Below, piece by piece: positions 2,700-46,054 of a DNA stretch of 64,000 bases (position 1 is its first letter; the number at the start of each line of letters is the position of its first letter). Position numbers and translations under genes: made by a program. The DNA is from Terriglobia bacterium (GTDB taxonomy: Bacteria > Acidobacteriota > Terriglobia > JAIQFV01). The stretch spans positions 14,544 through 78,543 of the forward strand of contig JAQUPQ010000014.1 in the NCBI GenBank assembly GCA_028716525.1, given 5' to 3'. The notes below the pieces were generated by a model that was given only the letters and a program-made list of their open reading frames with translations, was not told where the DNA came from and made no database searches.

Positions 2700-4403
2700 C
2701 TAGTAGTTGAACTGTGTAACGATCATGATCGCGTTCGTGCCCTTCGGGACAACATTGACGATGCCCAGTGGATTTGCCGCCGCCAACGAGGAACTGAACG
2801 TCGCGATCTGACCGGGTGACATGGTGAATTGGTTGTGAACGTAATGCAGGTTCGAGTCGCCCACGGCAATGTCAAAGTGATTGTTGAAGTGATAGCTGAT
2901 GCCGGCAACGGTGCGCGTGAAATCCAGAGGGTTTGTGCCGCTGATATTCGTGTTTGGTTGGAAATAGTGGAACAAACCGAAAAGCCGGAAAGGCGAGCTT
3001 CCCAGCTTGACGTTCCCAAAGAAGGCGAACCCTTGCTGGCGAGTATGGTCTCCATTGAGGAGCCCCTTGGCGAGGGCATCAAAGGTGGCATTGGGGGTCG
3101 GACCAAGACCGAATTCATCCGCCGGCCCGGAACCCGAGAACAGGTTTCCGGTGCTGAAGGCATTCCGTCCTAAATCGTATTCTCCCACGATTTCGTAAGT
3201 CTTGGCGGGACTCTGGTAGTGCGCAAAAAGCGCCAGCCGGTTGAGCGCAATGCTTCTGGTATCGGGCGTCTGGGTGTTGTAGCCATAATCCTCGAACGCC
3301 GTCAGGCCAAAGCCGGTTCGGTCTATTTTTGTCCCAAACGGGTACCAGGTGACACGGGCCATGACTTGCTTCTTGTCGTTGGATTCGATGGCATGGAAGC
3401 TGGCTGTGTTGAAGACACCGATGTCGTAATCCAAGAACTCCTTGCCATTGATCATGACGGGGCCGTGCAGTTTGACGCCCGTGTAGGTGGAGCTGAGGCT
3501 CAGATAATTCCAAGGTACCAAATAGGCGAACCGGAAGCCGCTCAACGCTTCTTCCCAGTCCACCAGCGGGTTTTGTGTTTGCCCGGCCGTGAGTTTGTCT
3601 TTTCCAAACATGTCACTGCCGGAAAACAACGTGTTGAAGTCGACATACGCGTATTTAAGACGAAAACCAAGATTCCCGTTGGAACTGGTGTTGATGGCTG
3701 CACCATTCCCGAAAGCTTGGGCTTTGGATACGTCAACCTGGCGGTAGATGTTCGGGGTAAGGCGGAGTGTCACGGCCTCAGTCGGCGTGTACACGAAGTT
3801 AAGGTAGGTTCGAGTGACATCGAAGGAATTGAAGCCGTCGTTTCCGGGCCCCGGCTGATTGGCTTGGGTAATGAACTGGGGGCCGAATCCCGTCTGCGTG
3901 TAATACGACCAGTCTCCGAAGAAGGTGGCTCCGAGTTGAATTTTCCCATACGCCAGATCGGACAACTTGGGCTCTTTCTTTTGGGAGGGTGAATCTTGAG
4001 AAGCCTCCAAGGCGGATGCCGCCGACGTCCCGGCCAGGGGATTGGTCGCGCCGAAGGCCGGACTCAATGCCCCCGCGGGAGGAAGAACGGGCTTTAGGCT
4101 GGCGACTTGACCCGCGCTCTTCAATCGTAAGATCTCATCCTGCTGCAACTTCAGTTGGGCGCTCATCTGATCCATGGCGCGTTTCAGGTCCTCAATGGTC
4201 TGGGCTTGCTTTTGTAACGCTTCCTCCAGTTGCTGCGACTTTTCATCGGCGGCCGCGGGCGGAGCAGCATTTGACTTCGCCGATTTTCTTTTCATCGCTG
4301 TCTTCTGAGCAGGGGAGTTGTCCGCCGCGAAAGCAGGAAGACTAATCGCCAACACAGCCAGAATTACAATTGTTACTGCCGAGAGGGACAGAGTCTTTCT
4401 CAT
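2700..4403 (-). CDS. Putative phosphate-selective porin (Porin O/P-like outer-membrane beta-barrel) with an N-terminal coiled-coil extension.
   Basis: It has a signal peptide and a Q/E/K-rich coiled coil, followed by alternating beta-strand-like segments and a C-terminal aromatic end (TQFNY). It lies directly upstream of, and in the same orientation as, pstSCA. A Pho-box-like repeat array sits upstream. Confidence 0.5.
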   Translation of the reverse strand: MRKTLSLSAVTIVILAVLAISLPAFAADNSPAQKTAMKRKSAKSNAAPPAAADEKSQQLEEALQKQAQTIEDLKRAMDQMSAQLKLQQDEILRLKSAGQVASLKPVLPPAGALSPAFGATNPLAGTSAASALEASQDSPSQKKEPKLSDLAYGKIQLGATFFGDWSYYTQTGFGPQFITQANQPGPGNDGFNSFDVTRTYLNFVYTPTEAVTLRLTPNIYRQVDVSKAQAFGNGAAINTSSNGNLGFRLKYAYVDFNTLFSGSDMFGKDKLTAGQTQNPLVDWEEALSGFRFAYLVPWNYLSLSSTYTGVKLHGPVMINGKEFLDYDIGVFNTASFHAIESNDKKQVMARVTWYPFGTKIDRTGFGLTAFEDYGYNTQTPDTRSIALNRLALFAHYQSPAKTYEIVGEYDLGRNAFSTGNLFSGSGPADEFGLGPTPNATFDALAKGLLNGDHTRQQGFAFFGNVKLGSSPFRLFGLFHYFQPNTNISGTNPLDFTRTVAGISYHFNNHFDIAVGDSNLHYVHNQFTMSPGQIATFSSSLAAANPLGIVNVVPKGTNAIMIVTQFNY

Positions 4404-4534: not shown

Positions 4535-4960
4535 AGATTCCATGAAACCCAGGACTGGGCTGAGGATTGTTCGGAGGGGGTCGGTACTGGGACTCGCCTT
4601 AGCAGCGTCAGTCCCGCGGCCTTTAGAGTGATCGGGGAATCGGTTGTGGGCCATCCACTGAAAGGGCAAGACACGCTGTCGTCAGGTGAGGGATGCTTTT
4701 TTCATCGAAGTACGATCCAGCATCGGTGATTCTGCCTTGCGTGGGCCTAGCGCTCGGCATCCCACCGAACCAAGAGGGGAGCAAGATGCTTCCTGCTGGC
4801 AGGAGCGCGATTCGAGTTGATTCCTAGCCAATTCATTCAAAAAAAGCGTGAGGTGAGGAATCCACATCTATCGTGAGAAGAAGCAGGGGCCATGAGGAAA
4901 GCGTCGCGAACTGAACGTGCGTACCCAACCCAACAAATGTCTTGACGAGGTAAATGAAAT

Positions 4961-4978
4961 CGGATATTCAGATATCCG
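4961..4978. promoter_or_regulatory. Putative ArsR operator: the inverted repeat CGGATAT-N4-ATATCCG, ending 2 nt before the arsR ATG. A TTGACG -35-like hexamer lies upstream.
   Basis: The palindrome is read directly. ArsR/SmtB repressors classically autoregulate through an imperfect 12-2-12 type palindrome that overlaps their own promoter. Confidence 0.45.
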
Positions 4979-4979
4979 G

Positions 4980-5384
4980 ATGCTTGAATTCTTTATGAAA
5001 GACATCGTCAAAGTTTTCAAGGCCCTCTCGGATACCACTCGTCTTCGCATTCTCCACCTGCTCGAGCAAACCGGGGAGCTGTGTGTGTGCGATCTCAAAA
5101 CCGTCCTCGAGTGTCCGCAGGCGCGCATCTCCAGGCACTTGGCGATTCTCAAGAATGCGGGCTTTATCGATGACCGGCGCGAGGGGACGTGGGTGCTTTA
5201 TTCCCTGACGAAAGCCAAGGGTCCCATTCAGCCCGTGGTTCGGAAAGCCTTCAAGCAGATCGTGGCTGTTTCTCCGGATTTTGGCGACGACAAGCAGCGC
5301 CTGCGACAGGCCCTGGCGCAAGGGCGATGCAAGACATTTCAAGTCGTCCATCCGCGTGGCCTGTCGAAACCAGCGCCACGATGA
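4980..5384 (+). CDS. arsR: ArsR/SmtB-family metalloregulatory repressor.
   Basis: It has a winged-HTH region and the ELCVCDL metal-binding motif (VFKALSDTTRLRILHLLEQTGELCVCDLKTVLECPQARISRHLAILKNAGFI). The start is taken at the internal ATG 4980 because the operator palindrome sits there. The track ORF begins at 4917. Confidence 0.85.
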   Translation: MLEFFMKDIVKVFKALSDTTRLRILHLLEQTGELCVCDLKTVLECPQARISRHLAILKNAGFIDDRREGTWVLYSLTKAKGPIQPVVRKAFKQIVAVSPDFGDDKQRLRQALAQGRCKTFQVVHPRGLSKPAPR

Positions 5385-5492
5385 CCGAGTGATCCGCAAA
5401 TCACCCGCGTGAATACTTTAAGAAGGGCGGATGGAAATCGCGGTTATGCACAGACAATGAAATCGGAATCAGACGATTTGTCGGAGGAATCC

Positions 5493-6128
5493 ATGCCTAA
5501 GCCCAGGTGGCGCTTGGTGATTGCCTTGGTAATACTGCTAGCGACTATATCCGCTAATTCTGCAGCTCCCGAACAAACGAAGGCTTTCAAAGGCTTCGAG
5601 GTGATTCCTCTGAGAAATGGCCCAAATGAAATTGATATCAATGGAGACGGCTTAAAAGATCTGATCTTTATCGCTTGGCGCGAGAACTACAATGCCCATG
5701 GATTTGACATTATTACTTTCTATCTTCAGGTTAAGAGTGATCATGATATCCAGCCGAAAGAAGAATGGTATCTTGTCCCGTTTTTTGATGAGGGAGGAGT
5801 TCCTGACAAAACCTCTCTCAAGACCGAGATGGGTGCTGATTGCATTCTCTCTGACATCCGCGTGATACGCCCAGTCTCACCCAAGAAGGGTCCTGTTACT
5901 ATTGTTGTTGGTATCCGTGATTTAGGAGAGTCGTATGCCGATGAAGCATCAATTAAATTTCTCGTTTATGAATTGAGGTACACCAAAGAGGGCATTCCAG
6001 GAAAACCGCCTTATTACTTTCAGCAGTCAAAGACCATACCTGGGCAAGAGAAGTACTGCGACATCAATAACGCATTTCAAAGAGAATTGGGACTCGGATG
6101 GTACCGCACCGACAGAAAAAAGGAATAG
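5493..6128 (+). CDS. Hypothetical secreted protein with a single D-x-N-G-D-G-x-x-D calcium-binding-like motif. The gene has a distinctly lower GC content than its neighbours.
   Basis: A GGAGGA ribosome-binding site precedes the ATG at 5493. The N-terminus (MPKPRWRLVIALVILLATISANSAAPEQ) is a signal peptide. Codon usage is AT-rich compared with the neighbours. The track ORF is 5409..6128. Confidence 0.5.
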   Translation: MPKPRWRLVIALVILLATISANSAAPEQTKAFKGFEVIPLRNGPNEIDINGDGLKDLIFIAWRENYNAHGFDIITFYLQVKSDHDIQPKEEWYLVPFFDEGGVPDKTSLKTEMGADCILSDIRVIRPVSPKKGPVTIVVGIRDLGESYADEASIKFLVYELRYTKEGIPGKPPYYFQQSKTIPGQEKYCDINNAFQRELGLGWYRTDRKKE

Positions 6129-6201
6129 GATGGTCTTACCAAACTCAGGGTGCCGCCCATAATCAGTGCTTGCAATCGATTGCAGATAATGTTGACTCCC
6201 G

Positions 6202-7314
6202 GTGACGCCTTCAAAAGATCGAACTCCAATGAATAAGAATTTCACAGGTCAACTGTCATTTCTCGACCGCTATTTGACCGTTTGGATTTTTGCGGCCATG
6301 GTGGCCGGCGTAGCTGGAGGATGGCTGGTTCCCGGGATTGTACCCCTCCTCAATCGATTCAACGTCGGCACCACCTCCATCCCCATCGCCGTGGGTTTGA
6401 TCCTGATGATGTATCCGCCTCTAGCCAAAGTGCGCTACGAAAAGCTGGGCCAAGTATTCCGCAACAAGAAAATTCTGTTGTTGTCGTTGATTCAAAATTG
6501 GATTGTTGGACCGGTGCTTATGTTCGCGCTCGCCATCCTTTTTCTTCACCATTATCCCGATTACATGGCGGGGCTCATCATGATGGGTTTGGCGCGTTGT
6601 ATCGCCATGGTGATTGTATGGAATGAGTTGGCCAAGGGAGATACCGAATACGCCGCCGGCCTGGTGGCCTTTAATTCGGTCTTCCAGGTACTGTTCTATT
6701 CCGTTTACGCGTGGATTTTTGTCACCAAGCTGCCGGAATGGTTCGGCATGCACGGGTCGGTGGTCAACGTCTCCATCCGTGACATTGCCCACAGCGTTTT
6801 TATCTACCTGGGCATACCTTTCGTGGCGGGCATGATCACACGGTTTGGTCTGCTGCGGGCGCGGGGCAAGGAGTGGTACGAGCGGAAATTCATTCCGCAC
6901 ATCAGCCCCGTCACGCTGATCGCGTTGTTGTTCACCATCGTGGTGATGTTTTCGCTGAAGGGCGAGTACATTGTTCGCCTGCCGCTCGACGTGGTGCGCA
7001 TCGCCATTCCGCTCCTCATCTACTTTGTGGTGATGTTTCTGGTCTCGTTTTACATGGGCCACAGGCTGGGCGCGGATTATTCCCAGACGGCCACGCTTTC
7101 GTTTACGGCTGCCAGCAATAACTTTGAGTTGGCAATTGCTGTCGCGGTTTCGGTCTTTGGCATCAATTCCGGCGCAGCTTTTGCAGCCGTCATCGGTCCG
7201 CTCGTCGAGGTGCCGGTTCTGATCAGCTTGGTCAATGTGTCTTTGTATTTTCAGCGGAGGTTCTATCCCGGCGTCGCAGTTCAGCCCGAAGCGGTTTTGG
7301 CAAGCCATACTTAA
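6202..7314 (+). CDS. acr3: Arsenite efflux permease of the ACR3 family.
   Basis: It is a ten-transmembrane-segment protein that begins ...[28 protein letters not shown], which is an ACR3 hallmark. An alternative start is at 6229. Confidence 0.9.
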
Positions 7315-7326
7315 GGAGTCCGATCC

Positions 7327-7737
7327 TTGAAGCAGCGGGTTTTATTTTTATGCACCGGCAACTCGGCGCGGAGCCAGTTGGCTGAAGGGCTGCTCAGACA
7401 CTTGGCGGGCGACCGCTTCGAAGTCTTCAGTGCGGGGACAGTTCCCGTGGGTGTGAATCCCGCTGCCGTTGAAGTCATGAATGAGATCGGGATCGACATC
7501 TCCTCTCAGTGGTCCAAATCGGTGGAGGAATACGCCGGGCAGGACTTTGATGTGGTTTTTACTTTGTGCGACTACGCTCGGGAGACCTGTCCGATTTATT
7601 CCGGTGGAACCAAACAGCTGCATCAGAACTTCGAGGATCCTACCTGGGCGTCTTCTGACGGTCGCCTGGAAGCTTTTCGCCGTGTGCGCGATAAAATTGC
7701 CGAGCGGTTGAAGCAGTTCATTGCTTCCGGACAGTGA
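7327..7737 (+). CDS. arsC: Arsenate reductase ArsC of the LMW-PTP, thioredoxin-coupled type.
   Basis: It carries the CTGNSARSQ P-loop motif (MKQRVLFLCTGNSARSQLAEG...) and is 136 aa long. Confidence 0.9.
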   Translation: MKQRVLFLCTGNSARSQLAEGLLRHLAGDRFEVFSAGTVPVGVNPAAVEVMNEIGIDISSQWSKSVEEYAGQDFDVVFTLCDYARETCPIYSGGTKQLHQNFEDPTWASSDGRLEAFRRVRDKIAERLKQFIASGQ

Positions 7738-7765
7738 GTTCCCGCTGCTCCGAAAATATTATTCT

Positions 7766-8046
7766 GTCGTCCCGCGAAGCGGGACTAGAATCCAATCTCA
7801 ATCTTTTCCCCAGGCTTACGCCTGGGGCTAAAGATCTGGCGTCCTCCTGGCGGAGGACTTGTTGAATGTGGTCCAGCAAAGTTCCTCGAAGACAGTCGAA
7901 AGTCCTTTATTCGAGACGTAAGTCCAGCGTCGGTGGGGTTAGAAATAGATTAGTCCCGCCTTCCGGGACGGTAGACCTTTAGCCCAGCACGTCAGTGCTG
8001 GAGACGGTACGAGGGGAGGGCACCGAGTCCCGCTCCGCGGGACGAC
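7766..8046. repeat. Cluster of GC-rich hairpin modules. These include GTCCCGC-N3-GCGGGAC at both ends, CCCCAGGCTTACGCCTGGGG, GTCCTCCTGGCGGAGGAC and CCAGCACGTCAGTGCTGG.
   Basis: The palindromes are read directly. The same modules recur at 12.6, 22.0, 46.2-46.5 and 49.2-49.4 kb. Confidence 0.6.
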
Positions 8047-8245
8047 AGATACCTTTCGGGAGCAGGTAAGATAATCGTGCGAACAGAAGATGCTTGGATT
8101 TCTTTCGCCACGTCCGGCATGATCCAAAATGAAAACTGCTTGAGGTGAAATCTCCGCAGGGCATAGAATTCACCTGTCGCCAGTCGCGCCTGTGTTGGCC
8201 CCTGATGTTTTATCGACCGGGTGGCACGTGAGGCTTTCAAGTAAA

Positions 8246-8483
8246 CGATCCCATTCCATGAACTGACCAGCGCTGAAAAGGAGCAGAAGGCAGAGATCAT
8301 TACGCGCGTGAGCGCTTGCGCATTGCATCATCGTCTCGCCACGCGCCTGCTCGAGGATGGCTCCGAGACTTGTGCGGTGCAAGAGCTTCTGGGTCACAGG
8401 GATGTGAAGACCACGATCCGGCGCGGCCCAACTCATGCTTTGGATCGGGGAGGCAAGGGCGTGAAGAGTCTCGTGGACACGCT
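8246..8483 (+). pseudogene. C-terminal remnant of a tyrosine recombinase (integrase-like, IntI/Xer type). It is about 78 codons long and has no N-terminal part.
   Basis: The translation ...RVSACALHHRLATRLLEDGSETCAVQELLGHRDVKTTIRRGPTHALDRGGKGVKSLVDTL* matches the conserved HxLRHxFAT...LLGH.DV.TT..YTHV...GG.GV.SPLD box II region. The catalytic Tyr region is degenerate. An in-frame stop sits just upstream at about 8243. Confidence 0.5.
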
Positions 8484-8736
8484 GTGAAGGAAAAGGCGGA
8501 GGGTGTTATGCGGAAACCAAATAAGATGCAGGATCGAAACAGAATTGCCCCTAATCCGTTGACGAAAAAGGGATGCGTCACGTTTTCGATGAGGGTATTA
8601 TCAGGACGGAAAACCGGATAATGGTTTTATCTGGAAACCATATATTTAGAAGTTAGGCCATTGGCGACTTTTCATGAGCGACCAAATCCACAATGCAAAG
8701 AAGTGACGGAATCAACAGTCACGAAAGGAATCCTCT

Positions 8737-10289: not shown

Positions 10290-10570
10290 CAAGGTACGCA
10301 GCGGCGAAAGCACCCGTGCCCGCTCAAGCCCGGCGAATCACCATCAAAGTCATGTCGTCGGCGTCGAAATCCGCGCTGCGGAATTTTGTCCAATCGTCGA
10401 GAATCGTCCGAATCATCAGTGACGGCGCGGCGCTTGAATTCCGTCCAACCAGATCGATCTGCCGTTCCGTTCCGTAAGGACGGCCCGCATCATCTTCCAT
10501 CTCCGTCAGTAAAGAGAATCAGGCCGTCGCCGGGTTGCAGCCTGCCAGGACTTGGTGATGGTCCGAAGAG
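10290..10570 (-). pseudogene. Frameshifted 3' fragment of a PP2C/SpoIIE-type phosphatase gene. It is a paralog of the gene at 11429..12424.
   Basis: The DNA is clearly similar to 11440-11660. The minus-strand frames give ...RLQPGDGLILFTDG, then a frameshift, then LTEMEDDAGRPYGTERQIDLVGRNSSAAP...DDMTLMVIRRA. The N-terminal two-thirds are absent. Confidence 0.6.
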
Positions 10571-11428: not shown

Positions 11429-12424
11429 TTACTGGCGACTAGAGGAATCCCCTTTTCTCCGTATTGCCATGAGCGTCATGTCATCGACCTTGAAACCGGG
11501 GCCACGGAATTTTGTCCAATCGTCGAGAATCGTCCTGACCATCACTTGCGGAGCAGCACTGGAATTATTCCGAACCAATTCGATCAACCGTTCAGTTCCG
11601 TAAGGACGGCCCGATTCATCTTCCATTTCCGTAAGGCCGTCGGTGAAAAGGACCAGGCTGTTGCCGGGTTGTAAACGAACGGATTTCTCGAGAAATTTTT
11701 CATTGCAAAAAAGCCCGATCGGCAGACCGGTGGCTTCCAGGGGGATAATGGAATCCCCTTGCACGAGCAGCGCCGGGTGATGGCCGGCGTTACAAAGCTC
11801 AACGGTTCCGGAGCGATGCGCCCGGCCACACACCAGGGTGGCGAAGTGAGTGGGCAGCGTGCTTTCGCAAAAGCCGCGGCTGGCGCGTTCCACTGCCTGA
11901 GTCAGAGGCAAACCCAGCGCGGTGAGTGTGCGCAACATGGCATGAAGTTGGCCCATCAACATGGAAGCAGCCAAGCCCTTGCCTGAAACGTCGCCCAACA
12001 TGAAACTGACGGTATCTTCCGATGAAGTTAGGACGTCGCAATAGTCTCCGCTCACCAAACCGGCCGGGGCATAATGGTGGGCGATTACCCAACCGGCGTG
12101 CTCCACCAAAGGTTTCGGAAGCATTTCCTTTTGAATCTGGGCGGCTAACTGCAAATCTTCTTCCAGATCGTGTTGTTGACCGGGCGTCAAGTGTGCAAGA
12201 CATAACCGCGCCAAAGGATCGGCTAACAAGCGGTCTTTCTCGATGGGTTCGTGACATACATCGCACAGTCCATAATCGCCCTTGTCCATGTGTCCCAAGG
12301 CGTGATCGACGCTCGCCAATAGATCTTGAATTTGCGACATATCCATGGAATTTTTCTGAACGATCTCAAGGCGGCTGCGGCGATCCAGAAGTTCGTTTCG
12401 GAGCATGTCGTTGGGGGTGCTCAT
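11429..12424 (-). CDS. PP2C-type (SpoIIE/RsbU-like) serine phosphatase with an N-terminal Cys-rich zinc-ribbon-like segment.
   Basis: It carries the PP2C motifs (GDYCDVL, GDVSGKGLAASMLMGQL, ELCNAGHHPALL, LVLFTDGLTE). The N-terminus contains CDVCHEP...RLCLAH. Confidence 0.8.
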   Translation of the reverse strand: MSTPNDMLRNELLDRRSRLEIVQKNSMDMSQIQDLLASVDHALGHMDKGDYGLCDVCHEPIEKDRLLADPLARLCLAHLTPGQQHDLEEDLQLAAQIQKEMLPKPLVEHAGWVIAHHYAPAGLVSGDYCDVLTSSEDTVSFMLGDVSGKGLAASMLMGQLHAMLRTLTALGLPLTQAVERASRGFCESTLPTHFATLVCGRAHRSGTVELCNAGHHPALLVQGDSIIPLEATGLPIGLFCNEKFLEKSVRLQPGNSLVLFTDGLTEMEDESGRPYGTERLIELVRNNSSAAPQVMVRTILDDWTKFRGPGFKVDDMTLMAIRRKGDSSSRQ

Positions 12425-12594
12425 GTTTGGTAACTCCTGTCGAAAGCCTGTTTTATTCCTCGGCTGAGTAAAAGTAGAATGTTAAAGGCAATAGTAAAAC
12501 ACTCTCGTTATGCACAAGCTATCATATTGTCCCGGCGTTGTGTCTATCCGACTATTTTACTGAATTTTTTCAGATAAGGGTTCAAGTCTATGTC

Positions 12595-12906
12595 GCTCCC
12601 TGCGGGAGCTCGTTGTTGTAGGGTCGTCAGGGTCCTGAGGCTTACGCCTCAGGCTACGACTATTTCATCCCCCAATGGGGGATTTCATTTTCGTGAAAAT
12701 TTCTAATTGTGCTGAGAAAGAACGCACAGGGATATAAGAATGTTTTATCTTCCGGGGAGGAGATTCAACACAGAGGACATCGAAGTTACACAGTGAATTC
12801 CCCGGTTTTTTCCGAGGCAGTTGCTCATGCCCCGATGGATCGGGGCACCCAGGAGAATGAAAATCGTTCTGGAAGCCGGGATGCTCCGCTTTTTGGAGCA
12901 TCCCGG
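12595..12906. repeat. Cluster of GC-rich hairpin modules: GCTCCCTGCGGGAGC, CCTGAGGCTTACGCCTCAGG, CATCCCCCAATGGGGGAT(TTCAT), CCCCGATGGATCGGGG and CCGGGATGCTCCGCTTTTTGGAGCATCCCGG.
   Basis: The modules are shared nearly verbatim with 46.4-46.55 kb and 49.2-49.3 kb. Confidence 0.6.
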
Positions 12907-16475: not shown

Positions 16476-16836
16476 TCCTTCCTTTTTCACGATCCTGGGT
16501 GTGACCCGGGCCTACGCCACGCTGGCCTTGAGGAAATTTGTATACTCCGTGAACGATGAATACTCTTTTTCCGAATCTGAAACCCAGAGATTCCGCTAGT
16601 GGACACTTTCGAAAAATGCGCGGGATAGTTTCTTGATGGATCCTCTTTAATTTCAATAGATAACTTAATCTGGAAATGGCGATTCAGTTGCCAGGAAGTG
16701 TAATTGAAAATGTGGGCGGTGGTGTAAGTAAGGCTCGAGTTTGGAATCCAAAATATTTCAGGATCCGATCCCTCATTGCAGGTGAGGGTTGGAATGTTGG
16801 ACTGAAGCATTTCGCTGAGAAAGGTGGAATCAGTCG

Positions 16837-24757: not shown

Positions 24758-27700
24758 CTATTTTGCAGTTCGGGTCAAGGTGTCAAACAAGGGTTGAACG
24801 GGATGCACTTCGTCGCCCTCATTGGAAACGGTCATGGCCAGGATTCGGATCTTGTCATTATAGGGCAAGGTCACTGTCTTGGCATTCGCGGGAACAGCGA
24901 GATCGTATGCAAAAAGATAAACATACGCGTACGGCTCGTTGGCGCCGTCGGCGGTGTGATGGTGAGTGGCAAACCAAGCGACCGGCGCAGGCTTGACGAA
25001 CCCGGGCGTCAGCCCGGCAAATTCTTGTGTGGTGCGGGGACGCTCCAAGCGATCTCGGAGGTCTTCGAGTTGTGCGACGCGATGAGTGTCTCCTCGAGCG
25101 GTGGCTTGCTTCAAAGCCTCCTCCACTTGGGCTTCGCGCTGTTTGAGCCGGGACGCTTGCTCTTCGGTCAAGGGCGGCGCTGGAATGGTTTTCCAAATCC
25201 GGTTGTCCCACTGTCCTATGAAACCTTGCCAATCTTGAATCGTGACGCCCACCTGTTTTTGGCCGAAAAGGAAAGAAGCTTCTTGATCTCCTTCCGCGGA
25301 AGCGGCCAGAATAAATAAATGGGTGGTCTTTCCAGCGGGAAATGGAATTGTTTGGCCTTTTGCGATCAAAGCGTCGGGGACGGATGTGGCGGGAGCGGCG
25401 AGTTGAAAGTGGATGTCGCCGTAAGCAATATCCGTAGGCAACTGTTCAGCCGGCAAAGCGCGGCCGACGGAATCGAAGCCCGGCGCGGATTTTGAGCCGT
25501 CGGCGCTGGCCGCGGCCAGATCATAAGTCAGTTTAATCGAGTGCCACTCGGGCGCAGCCGTCATGGTGCGAGGAGACTCCAGCTTCAAGGCAAACGTCCG
25601 CGGCTGATAAGGTCCAAACGGAGTCACCAGTGCGCCGTTTGAAACGGTAGCCGGCCCTACGGCCTCTTCAGCACCATTCACTTCGCGGGCTGAGATGATC
25701 GGAGCGGAAAAAGCAACGCGGACATCGGGCTGCGGCTCGCCTCCCATTTCCACCATTCGAACGATGATTTCCTTGCCGGCTTCCGCTCTCTTCAATGCGA
25801 GGACGCGAATGCGTTCATTGTTCACCTTGATCAGCGAAAACTCCTTGCCCAAAAATCCGGTGTGCTTGGGACTTTCAAAAGCAATCAAAGGTTGATTCAG
25901 ACGGTAGGCCTCCCAATCGGTTTGGGCGGCCCGGTAATCACCGCCATGTGAAGCCAGGCCGTAAGTCATTTCATGATGACCCCAATCTTGAGTCGCTTGA
26001 TCACTGTAATATTGGCCGTTCCCGGTTCCGATTCCGGGCGTGCGGAGCAAGGTCAACTGCAGTGTGTTGTCGGAGGGTTTGTCGGATCCATTCTTGCAAT
26101 CGGAAAGAATCGTTACGCCGAACGAACCGGATCGATCGGTGAGATCGAACCATTGATGAGAAGGGAATTCGAACATCTTCTCATCGTCGTTGTGGCGCCG
26201 GATAGTTCCAATATCCCAGTTGTAGGTCGCCAAAGCATTCGTTGCCACCAGGGGAAACACGGCTTTCAAATTGCTGGCGCCGGTTTTCCAGTCGATGGTG
26301 TTTACAAACTCCAAACGATTGCCGGCGTCGCCCTCGGACAGACGAATGATTTGAATAAATTTCGACCCCTCCGCTTCGCGCTCCACGCGGATGGCGATAC
26401 GGGCGGCGCCGTTCTCAACAATCTGAGTTCTTGCCGGTCCACCGACGTAAGCGCGGGGCGGCTTCTGCTGGTCTGCCCAATCCATATTCCAGGCCGGCCA
26501 GTCCACGGGTCTGTCGAGCTTGAAGGCCAGGCGGATCGGCGCCGATAGAATCTCTCTCTTGAGATTCTTATCGAAAATGCTCGAGACATCGCCCTGGCCA
26601 TCCAATTTCACCAGATAACGGGCATTCTCGAGTGAAGATTCAGTGACCCGGAGGTGCGAAGGTGCAGGCGATTCGGCGCTCTGAACGTCGAAAACAGAAA
26701 AACCTACGGAAGGAACTTTCGCAAGAAACAGAACTTTCCCGGCCGACACCTGCGACGGAACCTCTTTTCCATCCGGTCCCACCACTCGAACGGCTTTGGG
26801 CATTCCTTGAGGGAAAGAGATGTGCGCTTCGACAACATCCTGTCTTTCAATGTTCAACGGATTGAGAACCACGATGGCGATTCCGGGCCCTTCCGTGTTG
26901 AGAGAAGACGCCGCAGAATTCACGCCGCTCCTCAATACGGTGGCGAACTGATTCATCGCCAGGACTTGATCGTTCCATGAGTATTCATAGGCTTTGGGGA
27001 TACTGGTGCCGGGAATGATGTCGTGAAACTGGCCGCCCATCACCAAGGTCCAGGCATGATTGAGCCGCTCCAACGGATACGCCCGACCCGTCAGCCAGGA
27101 AGCTGCCACAGACGCTTCCTCGGCGGCATCCGCAAGCAATTCATTCTTGCGATTCCAGCGTTTCATATAGGCTTCCGAGGTCAGCGAACCCGCGGAGTGT
27201 TCCGTTAATTCGAGATCGCCCTTGTAACGCGGCATTCGAGTTGTTTGGTCCGGACGGATGTCGAGAAACATTTGTTCGGCAGTCGACTGGATGATATGGA
27301 GTGGGCCGTCTCCCACCAGGACGGGCGAGCCCGGTGGTGGGGGTTCTTCGAGCAGCCGTGAAAAGTCCAGGCGCTGACGCGGTGGAGGCAGCACCGTTTT
27401 GCTTTTGGTGAGAATCGCTTCCATCATTTTCACCGACGATTCCCGGGGCGCGCCGCCGATGTCGCCCGTGCCGTAATATCGATAATCCACAAACAGGCCG
27501 CTGGCTTCGCCATCCTTCTGAACCCGCTTGGGCCAGTCGATGGGATTATTTCGAGCGTTGGAATCGGTTGGCGGCGGAGGGCTCTTACTGATATCTTCCG
27601 TGATGTCGCCCGAGTAATCGGTGGCATTCAACGCCGCGATCACGCCCCGACCATCCGGTCCGTCCCAAATTCCTACATTGAAAGGAATTCCAACAGGAGT

Positions 27701-36100: not shown

Positions 36101-37272
36101 ACTTGCGAAACCACCTCAAACGTCGGAGACCACACCCCAAGCGTGCCCTATGGAGGCCGCTTAGCCGGTCAGATACCGCGCGTGTCATCCGTGCGTCCGA
36201 TGCATTCCAACTCATGCTGCTTTCCGAGGACAAATTATCATCCCGGAAGGGAAATGACCAGTCCGAGCCTTTTGTATCCCGCCAGTGATTAGCGGGCTTC
36301 GATCATTCGTGAAAAAATCTGCGGAGAAAGATGCTCCCGCAAAAAAAAGAGGGAGAACAGGGGCGCCATTTCCTTTTGAACTCGTGCTGTTTTGTGATGC
36401 CACTTTGAAATAAAAAATCTTTGAGGCGTTTACGTAAGGTTCTGGATTGAAGCCCATTTCCAATTGAAAATCTAATGAGGAGTAAGCAGCCGTGCAATGT
36501 ATTCCAATTTTTGTACATCTGCATACAAGATTCAATATGCACATCCGGGTCTTTCAATCAACCACGATGGTATCGATTTTTCAACACGATGCGAGTGAGA
36601 CGGCGAAATTTTGCAGAATGAACTCGAGGCGTCTTAGGGGACTTGATATGAGAATGTGGTGAGAAAGATCCTTCGAGGATTACGCGCATGAATGGAAATC
36701 GCACATTTCCAAGGCCTTCATTAGGAATCCTTGATCGGAATGGAAATTGCTACGTTCTTTCTCAGAGACATTCTCAACTGGGGATTTGTACTGTTTGTCT
36801 GGGTTAGAGCTAGCGACGGTGTTTTGAGTCAAATAAAGTAGTTCATTTGTGTCCGAATGATTCCCGTATGGGGAGAGCCAAATTCTGAGGCTCAGCATTG
36901 GCCTTTTGATTTTGGTCGAAGAAGAGGGTTTGACCCCGCGGGATTGAAGTTCTCCTTTGAGCGGGAGGAGGCGCCGCACCGCCGATCCAACATCCTCGAT
37001 TTCATTCCTAGATTTTCATTTTGATTTGAAACGAGGCGCGGTTCCTTTCTCTCATTCTGTTTCACTGAGACTTAATTTCAGATGTTCAGGCCTGCAAATT
37101 GTAATTCCTTCACGGGCAGAGAGGAGGCCAAGGCAATCCTGTTGTGTTTCAAAGACAGGCAACTGAGACACTTTATTAGAAGCGGAAAGTAGGCGAGCAG
37201 CAAATTGAAGGTGATTCAAGCTGCCTTGGCCTAAATCCAAGAACTGAAACTTCTGACAGGGAGGTTCTAAAA

Positions 37273-40748: not shown

Positions 40749-41648
40749 GAGGTTTGCTGCGTCGGCAAAACGCCGTCAAGCGGGTCTGGCCAGTCTGCGC
40801 TTGCGTCCGCCGGGGTTCGCTTGCGTCCCCCAGGTCTTTGGGGGATTGGCGGATTCGCTCTATTCAGCCGTTGTGCAATTCCAGTGAGCGTGTATCTTTT
40901 GGCGTTTTTTTGGATGCTGGCCAGTCTTCTGCCTGCCGCTTGACTCTTGTGGGTCCTTTTCGCGGATATTGAAAGTGAATATTCAGCCAAAACCAGGATT
41001 TCCAAAAGTAATATTTTGTCTCTGAATGGATACAAGTTTTCATATATTCGCACCCTTGGGAATAGGTCTCATTATCGTGAATGTTTTTCCCACAGAAGGA
41101 AGCATGAATAATAGAAACGCAAAAATCGCCCTAAGCAGTTGATAAAAAAATACTTAATTTGTCATAAATTTTGAGAGTTGGCGGCCACAGATAAACTCAT
41201 TCTCCATTCCATTAAAGGACACCTTTGGCATTCGAAGTGCCACTCCCTTATCGAACATTTTGGTTGCAGCGACCTGGATCGACCCTTGCCAGTTAGTGCG
41301 AATTGATTTGAACGCGATAGGTTGCAGATGGGGGCGTTTGAGGCTGTGTCGTGCGGGGGCGAAATTTTTCAGGAAGGCAGGCTGAATCTCTCATTCCGGG
41401 TTTAAGGCTGATCCCGCTCTCAGGAAATCAGGACAGATAGAACCACTCAGAAGTCGACACGCAGTGAAAAATCCAGTTCGGAATCAGAAATTCTGTCGAT
41501 TGCACGGACTTCCAAGATTCTCTTCAAATGCGGCTTCATTCCAAAACTTTTCTCGGTTTTTTGAGTGCGACTTGCGGGTCTGTCCACAGGATGCACTCAT
41601 TTCAGTTGACACGTACCAACCATTACATAAATCGATAGGAGGAAACAT

Positions 41649-44960: not shown

Positions 44961-45043
44961 GCCGATGATTAAGATGAGGCATAATGACGGCTGAGGTTGC
45001 ATGCAGCCCGCCGAAAAGAAAGATTGAATCCTTGGAGGTTGGA

Positions 45044-46054
45044 ATGAAATCCGGTGTTTCAAAGGTAATTTTTATCGCCATCTATATTTTAGGTTTTGGG
45101 TTAACACGGCTTTATGCCATTCAGGATCAAGCACGTCCCCCTATGATGCCCACGTCCATTCATGGACAAGTGCGCTTTTCCGAAGGTCAAATTCGGGCGG
45201 AGTATGTTTTGGTCCGTCTGGAACCCGTATCCGGTGGCATGACCGAAGAAACACGAACAGACCGTACGGGAAAATTTGATTTTTCAAACATTGGACAAGC
45301 CATCTATCGCGTTACAGCAACTTATCCGGGTTATATCCCTGCCACCCAGGAAGTAAATCTCGTGACGACTTTTACGGAGTACGTCCAGTTGACTCTCTTT
45401 CCGGAGAAGAAAGTAACGAAGCCGGTGAATAAGGCCGGCACTGAACTGTTGCTGGATGCAAAAGTCTCCAAAGAAGCGCGTGACGAATATGACAAAGGTC
45501 GCGAGGAATTGTCCAAAGGCTCCGAGCCCGGGAAAGGAATCGCTCATTTGGAAAAGGCCGTACAAATTGATCCCAATTTCCTGGAAGCGCAAGTTTTCCT
45601 GGGAACTTCTTATATTGACGCGCATGAGCTCGACAAAGCTCAAAAAGCCTTGCAAAAGGCATTGACCATCAATCCCAAAACCCCCTTGGCGTTGCTGGCA
45701 CTGGGAGAAGTGTATCGGGAAAAGAAGAATTTTCAGGAAGCGGAGAAGAATCTGACGGAGGGATTGAAACTTGACGATAACTCCTGGCAGGGACACTTTA
45801 CTTTGGGGAAGTTGTACTGGGATACGGGCAATACTCCCAAAGCCGGAGCGGAGATCGGCCGGACTCTGCAACTGAAACCGGATTACCCCGATGCTTATTT
45901 GATCGCCGGGAATATCTTTCTGAAAGCCAATCGCGCGCCTGAAGCCCTTCGAATGTTCAATGAATATTTGCGACTGGATCCCAAAGGAAAATTTGCCGAA
46001 CCCACGCGCCAATCCGTCGAGAAACTCAAGAAGGTCATGGCCGCACAAAAGTAG
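45044..46054 (+). CDS. Secreted or membrane-anchored protein with a CarbopepD_reg-like N-domain and TPR repeats.
   Basis: The N-terminal hydrophobic segment is followed by IHGQVRFSEGQIRAEYVLVRLEP...YRVTATYPGYIP. TPR-like helices then follow (AHLEKAVQIDPNFLEAQVFLGTSY..., ALLALGEVYREKKNFQEAEKNL...). Confidence 0.6.
   Translation: MKSGVSKVIFIAIYILGFGLTRLYAIQDQARPPMMPTSIHGQVRFSEGQIRAEYVLVRLEPVSGGMTEETRTDRTGKFDFSNIGQAIYRVTATYPGYIPATQEVNLVTTFTEYVQLTLFPEKKVTKPVNKAGTELLLDAKVSKEARDEYDKGREELSKGSEPGKGIAHLEKAVQIDPNFLEAQVFLGTSYIDAHELDKAQKALQKALTINPKTPLALLALGEVYREKKNFQEAEKNLTEGLKLDDNSWQGHFTLGKLYWDTGNTPKAGAEIGRTLQLKPDYPDAYLIAGNIFLKANRAPEALRMFNEYLRLDPKGKFAEPTRQSVEKLKKVMAAQK

What the first reader, a model, noticed from the sequence alone, without database searches (positions are those of the whole stretch)
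5493..6128. Low-GC gene for a secreted unknown protein inserted inside the ars operon
A 211-aa secreted protein is encoded between arsR and the ACR3 permease. Its sequence is visibly AT-richer (roughly mid-40s % GC against about 60% around it). It has one D-x-N-G-D-G-x-x-D calcium-binding-like motif and no homology I recognise. The compositional contrast suggests horizontal acquisition. Its position implies co-regulation by ArsR, so it may be an uncharacterised periplasmic arsenic or metalloid-related factor.
Basis: partly seen in the sequence, partly recalled or inferred. Interest (0 to 1): 0.5.

Follow-up and report, generated by a model that had tools for sequence, protein, structure and literature searches.

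The report
CarG-like gene cassette stuck in ars operon
The AT-rich gene between arsR and the arsenite pump encodes an exported protein of the small CarG family (known from self-protection in carbapenem-producing bacteria); it most likely arrived as a mobile integron gene cassette and now rides in the arsenic operon, and nothing ties its family to arsenic.

Summary
ORF 5493-6128 (+) encodes a 211-aa protein with an N-terminal signal peptide, between arsR (4995-5384) and acr3 (6229-7314). Its GC is 44.8%, but the surroundings are about 54%, not 60%. Its GC3 is 0.46 (z = -4.6).

The gene looks like an insertion:
- The closest ars operon (L089) has arsR, a 71-bp spacer, acr3 and arsC with no such gene.
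- Only one other contig (L084, 84% nt identity) shares the arrangement. There dN/dS is 0.2.
- None of 86 other family loci carries ars genes.
- Relatives at 38-44% identity are true integron cassettes, in attC arrays and in one case next to an integron integrase.
- Close relatives in five different contexts share a 5' boundary at GTTAYGC, and most share an inverse core GCATAAC after the stop codon.

The window copy keeps the 5' boundary (5443-5449) but only a decayed 3' site.

Best reading: a fossil gene cassette fixed at a secondary site and probably transcribed from the ArsR-controlled promoter. Its product is a periplasmic CarG-type protein of unknown target. An arsenic-specific role is unsupported. 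This is a new member of a known kind, of modest interest.

The parts
4961..4978 (.). Perfect palindrome CGGATATTCAGATATCCG, 17 nt upstream of the arsR ATG. It is a candidate ArsR operator, and a TTGACG -35-like hexamer lies just upstream.
   Evidence: It is unique in the window. The surrounding 25-nt block is 100% conserved in L084, while sequence further upstream diverges. Its function is inferred.
4995..5384 (+). arsR, 129 aa, with the ELCVCDL As(III)-binding motif. The ATG at 4995 is the likely true start, not the GTG at 4917.
   Evidence: Pfam HTH_5 1e-15 and NCBIfam NF033788 97 bits. The orthologues in L084 and L089 are called as 129 aa.
5443..5449 (+). Core-site-like GTTATGC, the proposed left boundary of the inserted cassette (crossover G|TT).
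   Evidence: Similarity between the window/L084, L085 and L086 copies, which sit in different genomic contexts, begins at this GTT (alignment A7). The same heptamer precedes the gene in L096. GC drops from 54% to 45% here.
5444..5492 (+). 49-nt 5' untranslated region carried with the gene, including the conserved block TTATGCACAGACAATGAAAT and the Shine-Dalgarno GGAGGA (5483-5488).
5493..6128 (+). CDS for a 211-aa CarG-like (PF21955) exported protein. The signal peptide spans roughly residues 1-24 (nt 5493-5564), followed by a beta-sandwich domain from residue 35 to 199.
5634..5660 (+). D48-I-N-G-D-G-L-K-D56, an FG-GAP/EF-hand-like acidic loop.
   Evidence: It aligns with DINQDGLKD of CarG. 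D48, D52, G53 and D56 are invariant in the close clade. A DxNxDGxxD-like pattern is present in only 59 of 176 family members.
6146..6197 (+). Decayed 3' recombination-site remnant. CCATAAT (6157-6163) aligns with the inverse core GCATAAC of L084, L035, L087, L095 and L096. GTTGACT (6191-6197) is a possible right junction.
   Evidence: Alignment A8 and flank listings. The stretch does not fold like an attC (z = +0.4 and +0.05), so the right boundary is uncertain.
6229..7314 (+). acr3 arsenite efflux permease, 361 aa from the ATG at 6229.
   Evidence: TIGR00832 467 bits. Identical to P0029, named by NCBI as an ACR3 family arsenite efflux transporter.
7327..7737 (+). arsC, a thioredoxin-type (LMWP) arsenate reductase.
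   Evidence: Pfam LMWPc 77 bits. It matches TIGR02691 at 132 bits, which is below that model's cut-off of 174.
8287..8484 (+). Dead C-terminal fragment of an integron integrase, about 550 bp downstream of arsC.
   Evidence: TIGR02249 50 bits, profile positions 251-315 of 315. It is 51% identical to the last 65 aa of the true IntI of L042. The R of the H-x-x-R box and the catalytic Tyr are lost. A link to the insertion is conjecture.

Best explanation
What it is. The ORF is a real gene under purifying selection. It encodes an exported beta-sandwich protein of about 185 aa when mature, belonging to the CarG family (Pfam PF21955).

How it got there (inferred from comparative anatomy). The gene was a promoterless integron gene cassette from a donor lineage of about 45% GC. 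An integron-integrase-type recombination at a GTT secondary site placed it into the spacer of about 70-100 bp between arsR and acr3, in a narrow acidobacterial lineage. Its 3' attC then decayed, which fixed it in place.

How it is expressed (inferred from position). It has no detectable promoter or terminator of its own, so it is read from the ArsR-repressed promoter upstream of arsR. Its product would therefore be made and exported when arsenite derepresses the operon.

What the protein does (inferred by homology only). It probably acts as CarG is thought to act, as a non-enzymatic periplasmic binding or shielding protein. Such a protein would protect an envelope target, for example peptidoglycan synthesis, from a toxic small molecule or protein.

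On this reading it is a passenger in the ars operon, not a component of arsenic chemistry.
For: Identity
- Pfam PF21955 at 48 bits against a cut-off of 28.
- PDB CarG 4O7J E = 1.2e-9.

Real gene
- dN/dS is 0.205 against the L084 orthologue; arsR gives 0.112.
- There is a strong RBS.
- A profile search finds 631 cluster representatives with a conserved polar core.

Insertion
- L089, the closest ACR3 (87% aa), has arsR, a 71-bp spacer, acr3 and arsC.
- L090-L093 also lack the gene.
- GC steps 54% / 45% / 53% at the proposed boundaries. GC3 z = -4.6.
- Close relatives keep 44-47% GC in hosts of 43-57% GC.

Cassette nature
- In L042 the gene follows an integron integrase (TIGR02249, 454 bits). It is flanked by GTTAGGC, then GCCTAAC, a 131-bp attC and GTTAGGC.
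- L041, L044, L046, L047, L049 and L050 have canonical attC sites directly after the gene and a core site before it (control rate 2.3%).
- Those contigs carry up to 10 attC sites in 5 kb.
- L086 (72% identity) has a well-folding attC, z = -4.9, and a second attC after the next ORF.
- The 5' boundary GTTAYGC is shared by the window/L084, L085, L086 and L096.
- The inverse core GCATAAC follows the stop codon in L084, L035, L087, L095 and L096.

Precedent: single cassettes fixed at secondary sites (PMC11213556, PMC10127599).

Expression: no terminator-like site in either spacer, and only one chance-level sigma-70-like match, at 6136-6163 downstream of the gene.

Not arsenic-specific: ars genes occur in none of the 88 other family loci except L084.
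Against: - The window copy has no foldable attC. The 3' junction is ambiguous and the core site deviates from GTTRRRY at one position.
- The cassette origin of this particular copy therefore rests on comparison with relatives. The attC scans were home-made, not IntegronFinder or HattCI.
- Among the close clade only L086 has a convincing attC. My guessed L095 and L096 sites fold poorly.
- Co-transcription was not measured, and acidobacterial promoters are not covered by the sigma-70 scan.
- The biochemical role is extrapolated from CarG at 25% identity. CarG's own mechanism is unresolved, and I could not read the structure paper.
- The arrangement arsR, gene, acr3 has survived about 16% nucleotide divergence under purifying selection. 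This is compatible with a benefit in the arsenic context.
- A second clade of the family sits under a metal-responsive ECF sigma/NrsF pair.
Confidence: 0.6

Rival explanations
1. The protein is a true accessory component of arsenic resistance: a periplasmic protein that binds or buffers arsenite or arsenate, or protects a periplasmic target from it. On this view it was selected for its position in the ars operon.
For: - It sits inside the operon on the same strand, with no terminator in the spacers.
- The arrangement is kept in L084 at 84% nt identity, with dN/dS 0.2.
- The protein is exported, so it would act in the compartment where arsenic enters the cell.
Against: - Only 2 of 90 family loci are ars-linked.
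- Relatives at 58-74% identity sit next to unrelated genes.
- The nearest ars operons lack the gene.
- There is no Cys-rich As(III) site. The only two conserved cysteines co-occur in 164 sequences and are co-absent in 7, out of 174, as a disulfide pair would.
- No known ars accessory gene family resembles it (own knowledge).
Confidence: 0.12
2. CarG-like proteins are general periplasmic stress protectants that are repeatedly recruited under metal(loid)- or thiol-stress regulators. The ars position would be one instance and the ECF sigma/NrsF position in Rhodanobacteraceae another.
For: - In 13 Luteibacter/Dyella-type loci the gene directly follows an NrsF anti-sigma gene on the same strand. 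In L004, the one checked, an ECF sigma gene precedes nrsF and the gap to the CarG-like gene is 41 bp.
- Sigma-F/NrsF mediates the chromium and cadmium response in Caulobacter (PMC3511200).
- The window and L084 place the gene under ArsR.
Against: - These are two lineage-specific associations, each probably a single event, among about 20 different context types.
- Most loci show no regulator or metal gene.
- Integron cassettes land wherever recombination allows.
- The function of NrsF systems in Rhodanobacteraceae is unknown.
Confidence: 0.13
3. The gene is an ancestral member of this operon type that was lost in relatives, so it is not an insertion.
For: The 3' recombination site cannot be demonstrated in the window. 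Two genomes share the arrangement.
Against: - GC3 is 4.6 sd below the host genes, and the GC steps coincide with the proposed boundaries.
- Homologues at 62-74% identity in unrelated contexts share the same 5' UTR from GTTAYGC onwards.
- The empty site L089 has an ordinary 71-bp spacer.
Confidence: 0.05
4. The gene is a decaying passenger with no current function.
For: The cassette is immobilised, and the family has no known role outside carbapenem producers.
Against: - The frame is intact.
- dN/dS is 0.2 at dS 0.38 against L084.
- All family-invariant residues are retained.
- The RBS is conserved.
Confidence: 0.1

Closest known systems
CarG (PDB 4O7J) of Pectobacterium carotovorum / Serratia sp. 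ATCC 39006, with its homologue CpmJ of Sodalis and Cronobacter; Pfam PF21955 CarG-like
   Same: - Same Pfam family.
- Shared residues N42, G43, N45, the DxNxDGxxD loop, N65, H69, D116, D121, R123, R142, G170, P172 and Y188.
- A single-domain protein of about 200 aa, with an export signal in this protein.
- Also occurs as an orphan gene. The Cronobacter plasmid CpmJ lies next to the omptin gene cpa, with no car genes nearby.
   Different: - Only 25% identity.
- This clade has its own signature, WRENYNAHG plus the Cys117-Cys189 pair, which CarG lacks.
- No carbapenem biosynthesis genes were seen among the genes around it; a CarF partner was not searched for.
- CarG acts together with CarF in self-resistance to the carbapenem (PMC11778176). 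No such phenotype can be assumed here.
Single integron gene cassettes fixed at secondary sites, for example dfrA14 inside strA in sul2-strA-strB plasmids and aadB in RSF1010
   Same: - One promoterless ORF with a short 5' UTR, inserted at a GTT/GNT site inside an existing operon and expressed from the host operon's promoter (PMC11213556, PMC10127599).
- Relatives of this gene are true cassettes in attC arrays.
   Different: - The documented cases keep an intact attC and lie on clinical plasmids.
- Here the attC is degenerate, the host is an environmental acidobacterial chromosome, and the cargo is not an antibiotic-resistance gene of known function.
- The responsible integrase is not identified. 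Only a dead intI fragment lies nearby.
Accessory genes of ars operons (arsD, arsA, arsH, arsM, arsP, arsI and others)
   Same: It lies between arsR and the efflux permease on the same strand, so it is probably arsenite-inducible.
   Different: - It is not homologous to any of them. Pfam gave only CarG-like and NCBIfam gave no hit.
- It is not conserved across ars operons.
- The family is not ars-linked elsewhere.
FG-GAP / integrin-type Ca2+-binding blades, and the periplasmic immunity protein XAC2610
   Same: - It has a DxNxDGxxD acidic loop.
   Different: - There is a single loop, not a propeller.
- The loop is absent from two thirds of the family.

Membership tests
Pfam PF21955 CarG-like | Score above the curated gathering threshold over the full profile | tested here: met
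   48 bits against a cut-off of 28, E = 1.8e-12, profile positions 1-143 of 144. All 28 homologues carry PF21955.
Pfam PF21955 CarG-like | CarG beta-sandwich fold | tested here: met
   [not shown]
Pfam PF21955 CarG-like | Export to the periplasm (N-terminal signal peptide) | tested here: inconclusive
   Judged by eye, the N-terminus has a typical basic, hydrophobic and small-residue layout. Hydrophobic N-termini are seen in all 28 aligned homologues, and some have lipobox-like L-x-x-C. No SignalP-type tool and no experiment were available. The co-varying Cys pair is consistent with an oxidising compartment.
CarG proper (carbapenem self-resistance) | Encoded in a car/cpm carbapenem biosynthesis cluster next to carF | tested here: not met
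   The neighbours are arsR, acr3, arsC, an unclassified 567-aa outer-membrane-like protein and a DUF4440 protein. No car genes were seen. No CarF sequence was available, so CarF itself was not searched for.
CarG proper (carbapenem self-resistance) | Confers resistance to 1-carbapen-2-em-3-carboxylic acid | not testable with these tools
   This needs an MIC assay.
Integron gene cassette | 5' boundary at a G|TTRRRY core site where similarity to copies in other contexts begins | tested here: met
   GTTATGC at 5443-5449 has one deviation from RRR. Alignment A7 shows conservation starting at GTT across the window/L084, L085 and L086. The same holds for L096.
Integron gene cassette | 3' attC site (R''-L''...L'-R', a foldable imperfect palindrome) | tested here: not met
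   The window stretch 6126-6205 folds no better than shuffles (z = +0.4). Only a degenerate inverse core, CCATAAT, remains. The feature is met in relatives: L041, L042, L044, L046, L047, L049, L050 and L086 (z = -4.9).
Integron gene cassette | Single promoterless ORF with a short 5' UTR | tested here: met
   One ORF, a 49-nt leader, and no sigma-70-like promoter in 5385-5492. The scan does not cover non-sigma-70 promoters.
Integron gene cassette | Located in an array next to attI/intI | tested here: not met
   It lies inside an ars operon. A relaxed scan of the whole window found no array of similar attC sites (this scan is noisy). Only a dead intI C-terminal fragment is present, at 8287-8484. 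It is therefore filed as a former cassette at a secondary site, not as part of an integron.
ars operon component | Co-directional with arsR and the arsenite pump, with no intervening terminator | tested here: met
ars operon component | Recurrent association with ars genes across genomes | tested here: not met
   Only L084 shares it. None of 33 genome loci and 50 metagenome loci has ars genes, nor do L085-L088, L095 or L096 by their called genes and neighbour scans. The five closest ACR3 loci examined lack the gene.
Ca2+-binding DxDxDG-type loop | The D-x-[DN]-x-[DN]-G-x-x-D sequence pattern | tested here: met
   Residues 48-56 read DINGDGLKD, the same loop as in CarG. Only 59 of 176 family members have it.
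Ca2+-binding DxDxDG-type loop | Actual Ca2+ binding | not testable with these tools
   This needs metal analysis or a crystal structure.

The most novel reading that the evidence does not exclude
CarG-like proteins may form a mobile, cassette-borne family of periplasmic protectants that different bacteria have wired to metal(loid)-stress sensors: ArsR in this acidobacterium, and an ECF sigma/NrsF pair in Luteibacter and Dyella. On that reading the window shows a new periplasmic arm of arsenic defence. It would have been acquired by integron-type capture directly into the operon.
Probability: 0.12. Interest if true: 0.6.

Novelty: new member of a known kind. Interest (0 to 1): 0.35.

Why it matters
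- It turns an 'unknown secreted protein' into a member of a defined, structurally characterised but mechanistically unsolved family. That family is rare: 631 representatives among 1.84 billion protein clusters.
- It shows that this family travels as integron gene cassettes in soil and wetland bacteria.
- The locus is a clean natural example of a cassette fixed at a secondary site inside a chromosomal stress operon of an environmental bacterium. Such events are documented mostly on clinical plasmids.
- It gives a convenient handle for studying CarG-like function. If the operon logic holds, the protein should be inducible by arsenite.
- It does not by itself reveal new arsenic biology.

Tried and rejected
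- Arsenic link through neighbours. The methyltransferases downstream of the gene in L036 and L085 looked like possible ArsM. They score as trans-aconitate methyltransferase-like (275 bits) and only about 30 bits to ArsM models, so this was rejected.
- Conserved partner gene, such as a CarF-like protein. All-against-all clustering of ORFs in 33 genome loci, plus Pfam counts on 79 upstream and 67 downstream neighbours, found no family-wide partner. Only lineage-specific neighbours appeared: NrsF, LysR, MASE1 and NUDIX.
- Flanking direct or inverted repeats, or a target-site duplication, around the insert. Nothing exceeded chance.
- attC in the window. A strict scan, a relaxed scan and direct folding were all negative. 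A still more relaxed scan, requiring only that the two core sites be complementary, was too noisy to use: 40 hits per 100 kb of shuffled sequence.
- A repeated 12-mer, AATGAAATCGGA, at the arsR operator and in the gene's leader, considered as a second operator. The second site is not conserved in L084, so it was left as a curiosity.
- Plasmid or phage carriage of close relatives. Only distant Cronobacter, Pantoea and Duffyella CpmJ genes on plasmids (25-28% identity) and nothing in phages.
- A first metagenome scan using close-clade patterns found nothing. The second scan, using WR[ED]N[YF]NAH, worked.
- The Foldseek afdb50 library was unavailable.
- The CarG structure paper (Tichy et al. 2014) is not held, so statements on CarG's mechanism rest on secondary citations.
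- A covariance model of attC was considered. It was dropped because the six available sites align poorly across types.
Full report
**1. The observation**

The window holds an ORF at exactly 5493-6128 on the + strand. It has an ATG start, a TAG stop and 211 codons, and a GGAGGA Shine-Dalgarno at 5483-5488. The product is identical to a protein predicted in public records of an Acidobacteriia (Terriglobia) MAG, on an 83-kb contig (P0001).

Upstream is an ArsR/SmtB repressor with the ELCVCDL arsenite-binding motif (Pfam HTH_5; NCBIfam NF033788, 97 bits). Downstream are an ACR3 arsenite permease (TIGR00832, 467 bits) and a low-molecular-weight-phosphatase-type ArsC. All four genes are co-directional.

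The N-terminus MPKPRWRLVIALVILLATISANSAAP looks like a Sec signal peptide. This was judged by eye, because no predictor was available. All 28 aligned homologues have a comparable N-terminus.

The composition figures are:
- GC is 44.8%, against a window mean of 54.3% (sd 3.0 for windows of the same length). That is the lowest 1.1%.
- GC3 is 0.46, against 0.64 +/- 0.04 for 29 ORFs of at least 180 aa, z = -4.6. It is the lowest of all long ORFs.
arsR, acr3 and arsC are 53-58% GC.
- The motif D48-I-N-G-D-G-L-K-D56 is present.

**2. What the protein is**

It is not an orphan.
- Pfam PF21955 (CarG-like) matches at 48 bits against a gathering cut-off of 28, over positions 1-143 of the 144-position profile.
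- A sequence search of the PDB finds CarG, entry 4O7J, at E = 1.2e-9, with the acidic loop aligned to DINQDGLKD of CarG.
- An AlphaFold2 model built on 28 homologues is confident (pLDDT 88.2, pTM 0.81). It shows an N-terminal helix of low confidence, the signal peptide, followed by an all-beta domain.

A profile search of 1.84 billion cluster representatives finds just 631 relatives at E <= 1e-3 and 436 at E <= 1e-10. Nearly all are single-domain proteins of about 200 aa. The family is therefore rare.

Across 176 members, the nearly invariant positions are G43, R63, N65, N67, A68, H69, G114-A115-D116, D121, R123, R142, F156, G170, P172, D190, A194 and E198. CarG shares about half of them.

- The DxNxDGxxD-like loop is present in only 59 of 176 members, so it does not define the family.
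- Cys117 and Cys189 are present together in 164 sequences, absent together in 7 (CarG among them), and discordant in 3. Most members have exactly two cysteines in the mature part. That is the behaviour of a structural disulfide in an exported protein, not of a thiol site for arsenite.

What is known of CarG is limited. CarF and CarG give the carbapenem producers Serratia and Pectobacterium intrinsic resistance to their own antibiotic (PMC11778176). [quoted passage not shown] 2014). The primary structure paper is not held.

**3. Is the gene real?**

Yes. A metagenomic contig, L084 (Logan SRR15058747, 1,568 bp), carries the same arrangement: arsR at 87% aa identity, the gene at 82% aa, then the start of acr3. 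Nucleotide identity is 84% over 1,380 bp.

Between the two copies dN/dS is 0.205 for the gene, with dS 0.38. For arsR it is 0.112. The gene is under purifying selection. In L084 it is again AT-rich, 46% against 56% for arsR.

**4. Is it part of arsenic biology?**

I collected 33 loci from species-representative genomes, 50 from metagenomes and 7 by exact protein look-up.
- tblastn with the window's ArsR, ACR3 and ArsC finds ars genes next to a family member only in L084.
- Relatives at 58-74% identity sit in other contexts. These include a lipid-A/ICMT-type methyltransferase (L034, L088) and a trans-aconitate-methyltransferase-like gene that is not ArsM (L036, L085).
- Further contexts are an esterase and CoA-ligase genes (L035, L087), unknown small ORFs (L086), and a position between a group II intron reverse transcriptase and an IS110 transposase (L037).
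- No neighbour family is shared across the family. The commonest are lineage-specific: NrsF (tblastn then finds it directly upstream in 13 Luteibacter/Dyella-type loci), LysR in Ralstonia, MASE1 and NUDIX.

Conversely, the closest ACR3 relative (L089, 87% aa) has arsR (129 aa, the same type), a 71-bp spacer, acr3 and arsC, with nothing in between. Four Sulfotelmatobacter-type loci have arsR-arsM-arsC-acr3, again without the gene.

The ars association is therefore confined to one narrow lineage.

**5. How it got there**

Three lines of evidence point to an integron gene cassette.

(a) More distant relatives (38-44% identity) are textbook cassettes.
- In L042 the gene follows a full-length integron integrase (TIGR02249, 454 bits against a cut-off of 265).
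- It is bounded by GTTAGGC on the left. On the right is an attC of 131 bp running from GCCTAAC to GTTAGGC, with a long imperfect stem.
- L041, L044, L046, L047, L049 and L050 show the same layout. The same scan hits 2.3% of random 330-bp segments.
- These contigs are cassette arrays. L046 has 9 attC sites in 5 kb, L047 has 10, L050 has 8 and L042 has 4.

(b) The close clade keeps cassette-type boundaries.
- L086 (72% identity) has a 78-nt attC, GCGTAAC...GTTATGC, that folds far better than shuffles (z = -4.9). A second site follows the next ORF.
- Similarity between the window/L084, L085 and L086 begins exactly at GTTA[T/C]GC, 46-52 nt upstream of the start codon. Nothing is conserved to the left of it (alignment A7). 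L096 has the same heptamer.
- Directly after the stop codon, L084, L035, L087, L095 and L096 carry GCATAAC. This is the exact complement of GTTATGC, which is the inverse-core/core relationship. L086 has GCGTAAC.

(c) Composition.
- All close relatives are 44-47% GC. In L034, L086, L035, L087, L095 and L096 the flanks are also 43-48% GC, so the gene is 'at home' there.
- In the window, L084, L036 and L085 the flanks are 53-57% GC.
- In the window, GC steps from 54% (left spacer 5385-5443) to 45% (5444-6190) and back to 53% (6191-6228).

The window copy keeps the left core site (5443-5449). On the right, the inverse core has decayed to CCATAAT (6157-6163), and the stretch does not fold (z = +0.4 and +0.05). 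The right junction, possibly GTTGACT at 6191-6197, is uncertain.

Subtracting the insert leaves about 95 bp of host spacer, comparable with the 71 bp of the empty site. Insertion of single cassettes at GTT/GNT secondary sites, with expression from the host operon's promoter, is documented. Examples are dfrA14 in strA and aadB in RSF1010 (PMC11213556, PMC10127599).

A dead C-terminal fragment of an integron integrase lies about 550 bp past arsC, at 8287-8484. It is 51% identical to the end of the L042 IntI, and its catalytic residues are lost. It shows integron activity in this genome's past. A link to this particular insertion is conjecture.

**6. Expression**

No terminator-like site lies in either spacer. 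The only sigma-70-like match in them is a 9-of-12 match at 6136-6163, downstream of the gene and at the level chance gives.

A perfect palindrome, CGGATATTCAGATATCCG (4961-4978), lies 17 nt upstream of the arsR ATG. It is unique in the window, and its 25-nt block is perfectly conserved in L084 while flanking sequence diverges. It is a good candidate for the ArsR operator.

Cassettes are generally promoterless. Read-through from the ArsR-controlled promoter is therefore the most likely mode of expression. This is inferred, not shown.

**7. Mechanism and verdict**

Shown:
- family and fold membership;
- purifying selection;
- foreign composition;
- an empty site in the nearest related operon;
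- cassette status of relatives;
- a shared 5' boundary.

Inferred:
- capture at a secondary site;
- arsenite-inducible co-transcription;
- a periplasmic CarG-type protective binding role.

Not supported: a specific arsenic function.

One observation keeps a more interesting reading alive. In 13 Luteibacter/Dyella-type loci the gene directly follows an NrsF anti-sigma gene on the same strand. In L004, the one checked, an ECF sigma gene precedes nrsF and the gap to the CarG-like gene is 41 bp. Sigma-F/NrsF controls the chromium and cadmium response in Caulobacter (PMC3511200). Two lineages thus place a CarG-like gene under a metal(loid)-responsive regulator. Each association is probably a single event among some twenty context types, so I give the 'metal-stress periplasmic protectant' idea about 12%.

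**8. Novelty**

The protein family, the ars operon and cassette capture at secondary sites are all known. The new elements are that CarG-like genes circulate as integron cassettes in environmental bacteria, and that one has become fixed inside an ars operon. I rate this a new member of a known kind, with interest 0.35.

Noticed in passing
window 4961-4978 (with the -35-like TTGACG at about 4943): A perfect 18-nt palindrome, CGGATATTCAGATATCCG, lies 17 nt upstream of the arsR ATG at 4995. It is unique in the window, and its 25-nt block is 100% conserved in L084. It is a likely ArsR operator. It also implies that arsR starts at ATG 4995 (129 aa), not at GTG 4917.
   Followed up: partly
window 4953-4964 and 5456-5467: The 12-mer AATGAAATCGGA occurs exactly twice in 64 kb: once abutting the arsR operator and once in the leader of the CarG-like gene. 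The second copy is not conserved in L084, so its meaning is unclear.
   Followed up: partly
window 8287-8484 (+): A dead C-terminal fragment of an integron integrase (TIGR02249, 50 bits; 51% identical to the last 65 aa of the L042 IntI). The arginine of the H-x-x-R box and the catalytic Tyr are lost, and no upstream part of the gene remains.
   Followed up: yes
window 7763-8049: Nested inverted repeats lie directly after arsC. The 24-nt arms at 7763-7786 and 8026-8049 are 96% complementary, and a further copy lies at 7951-7975. Each contains a GTCCCGCGAAGCGGGAC-type hairpin. This looks like a MITE- or REP-like element. A related hairpin unit at 7807-7830 recurs at 12633-12656.
   Followed up: no
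L004, L008, L009, L055-L057, L059, L060, L062, L066, L078, L079 (Luteibacter/Dyella-type loci): The CarG-like gene directly follows an NrsF anti-sigma gene on the same strand. In L004, the one checked, an ECF sigma gene precedes nrsF, and a DUF692 (MbnB/ChrH) gene and a second NrsF paralogue lie nearby. Sigma-F/NrsF is the Cr/Cd-responsive system of Caulobacter.
   Followed up: partly
L046, L047, L050, L042: These soil and rhizosphere metagenome contigs are dense integron cassette arrays, with 8-10 near-identical attC sites of about 90-140 bp in about 5 kb. In L042 the integron integrase is on the same strand as the cassettes, with its 3' end abutting the first one.
   Followed up: partly
L037 41-1606 and 3538-4482: A 61%-identical CarG-like gene lies between a group II intron reverse transcriptase and an IS110-family transposase. 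This is another mobile context.
   Followed up: no
window 2700-4403 (-): A 567-aa protein with a signal peptide, an Ala/Gln-rich coiled-coil-like N-terminal part and a beta-rich C-terminal part ending in F-N-Y, which looks like an outer-membrane porin. It has no significant Pfam or NCBIfam hit. It is transcribed divergently from the ars operon.
   Followed up: no
window 12300-12750, 16487-16810, 36200-36700, 40850-41050, 44984-46054: Further low-GC islands (42-49% GC). Some hold short ORFs with low GC3. The 356-aa ORF at 44984-46054 (GC3 0.52) is the next most atypical long ORF.
   Followed up: no
window 10334-10509 and 11460-11635: A 176-nt direct repeat at 78% identity, followed by a second repeated stretch of 35 nt. 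This may reflect paralogous gene segments.
   Followed up: no
L094 (Cronobacter sakazakii plasmid NZ_CP098775.1, record 25869-26411): The annotated 'CpmJ protein', a CarG homologue, is an orphan next to the omptin protease gene cpa on pESA3-type virulence plasmids. No carbapenem biosynthesis genes are nearby. It was found on 29 Cronobacter plasmids.
   Followed up: partly
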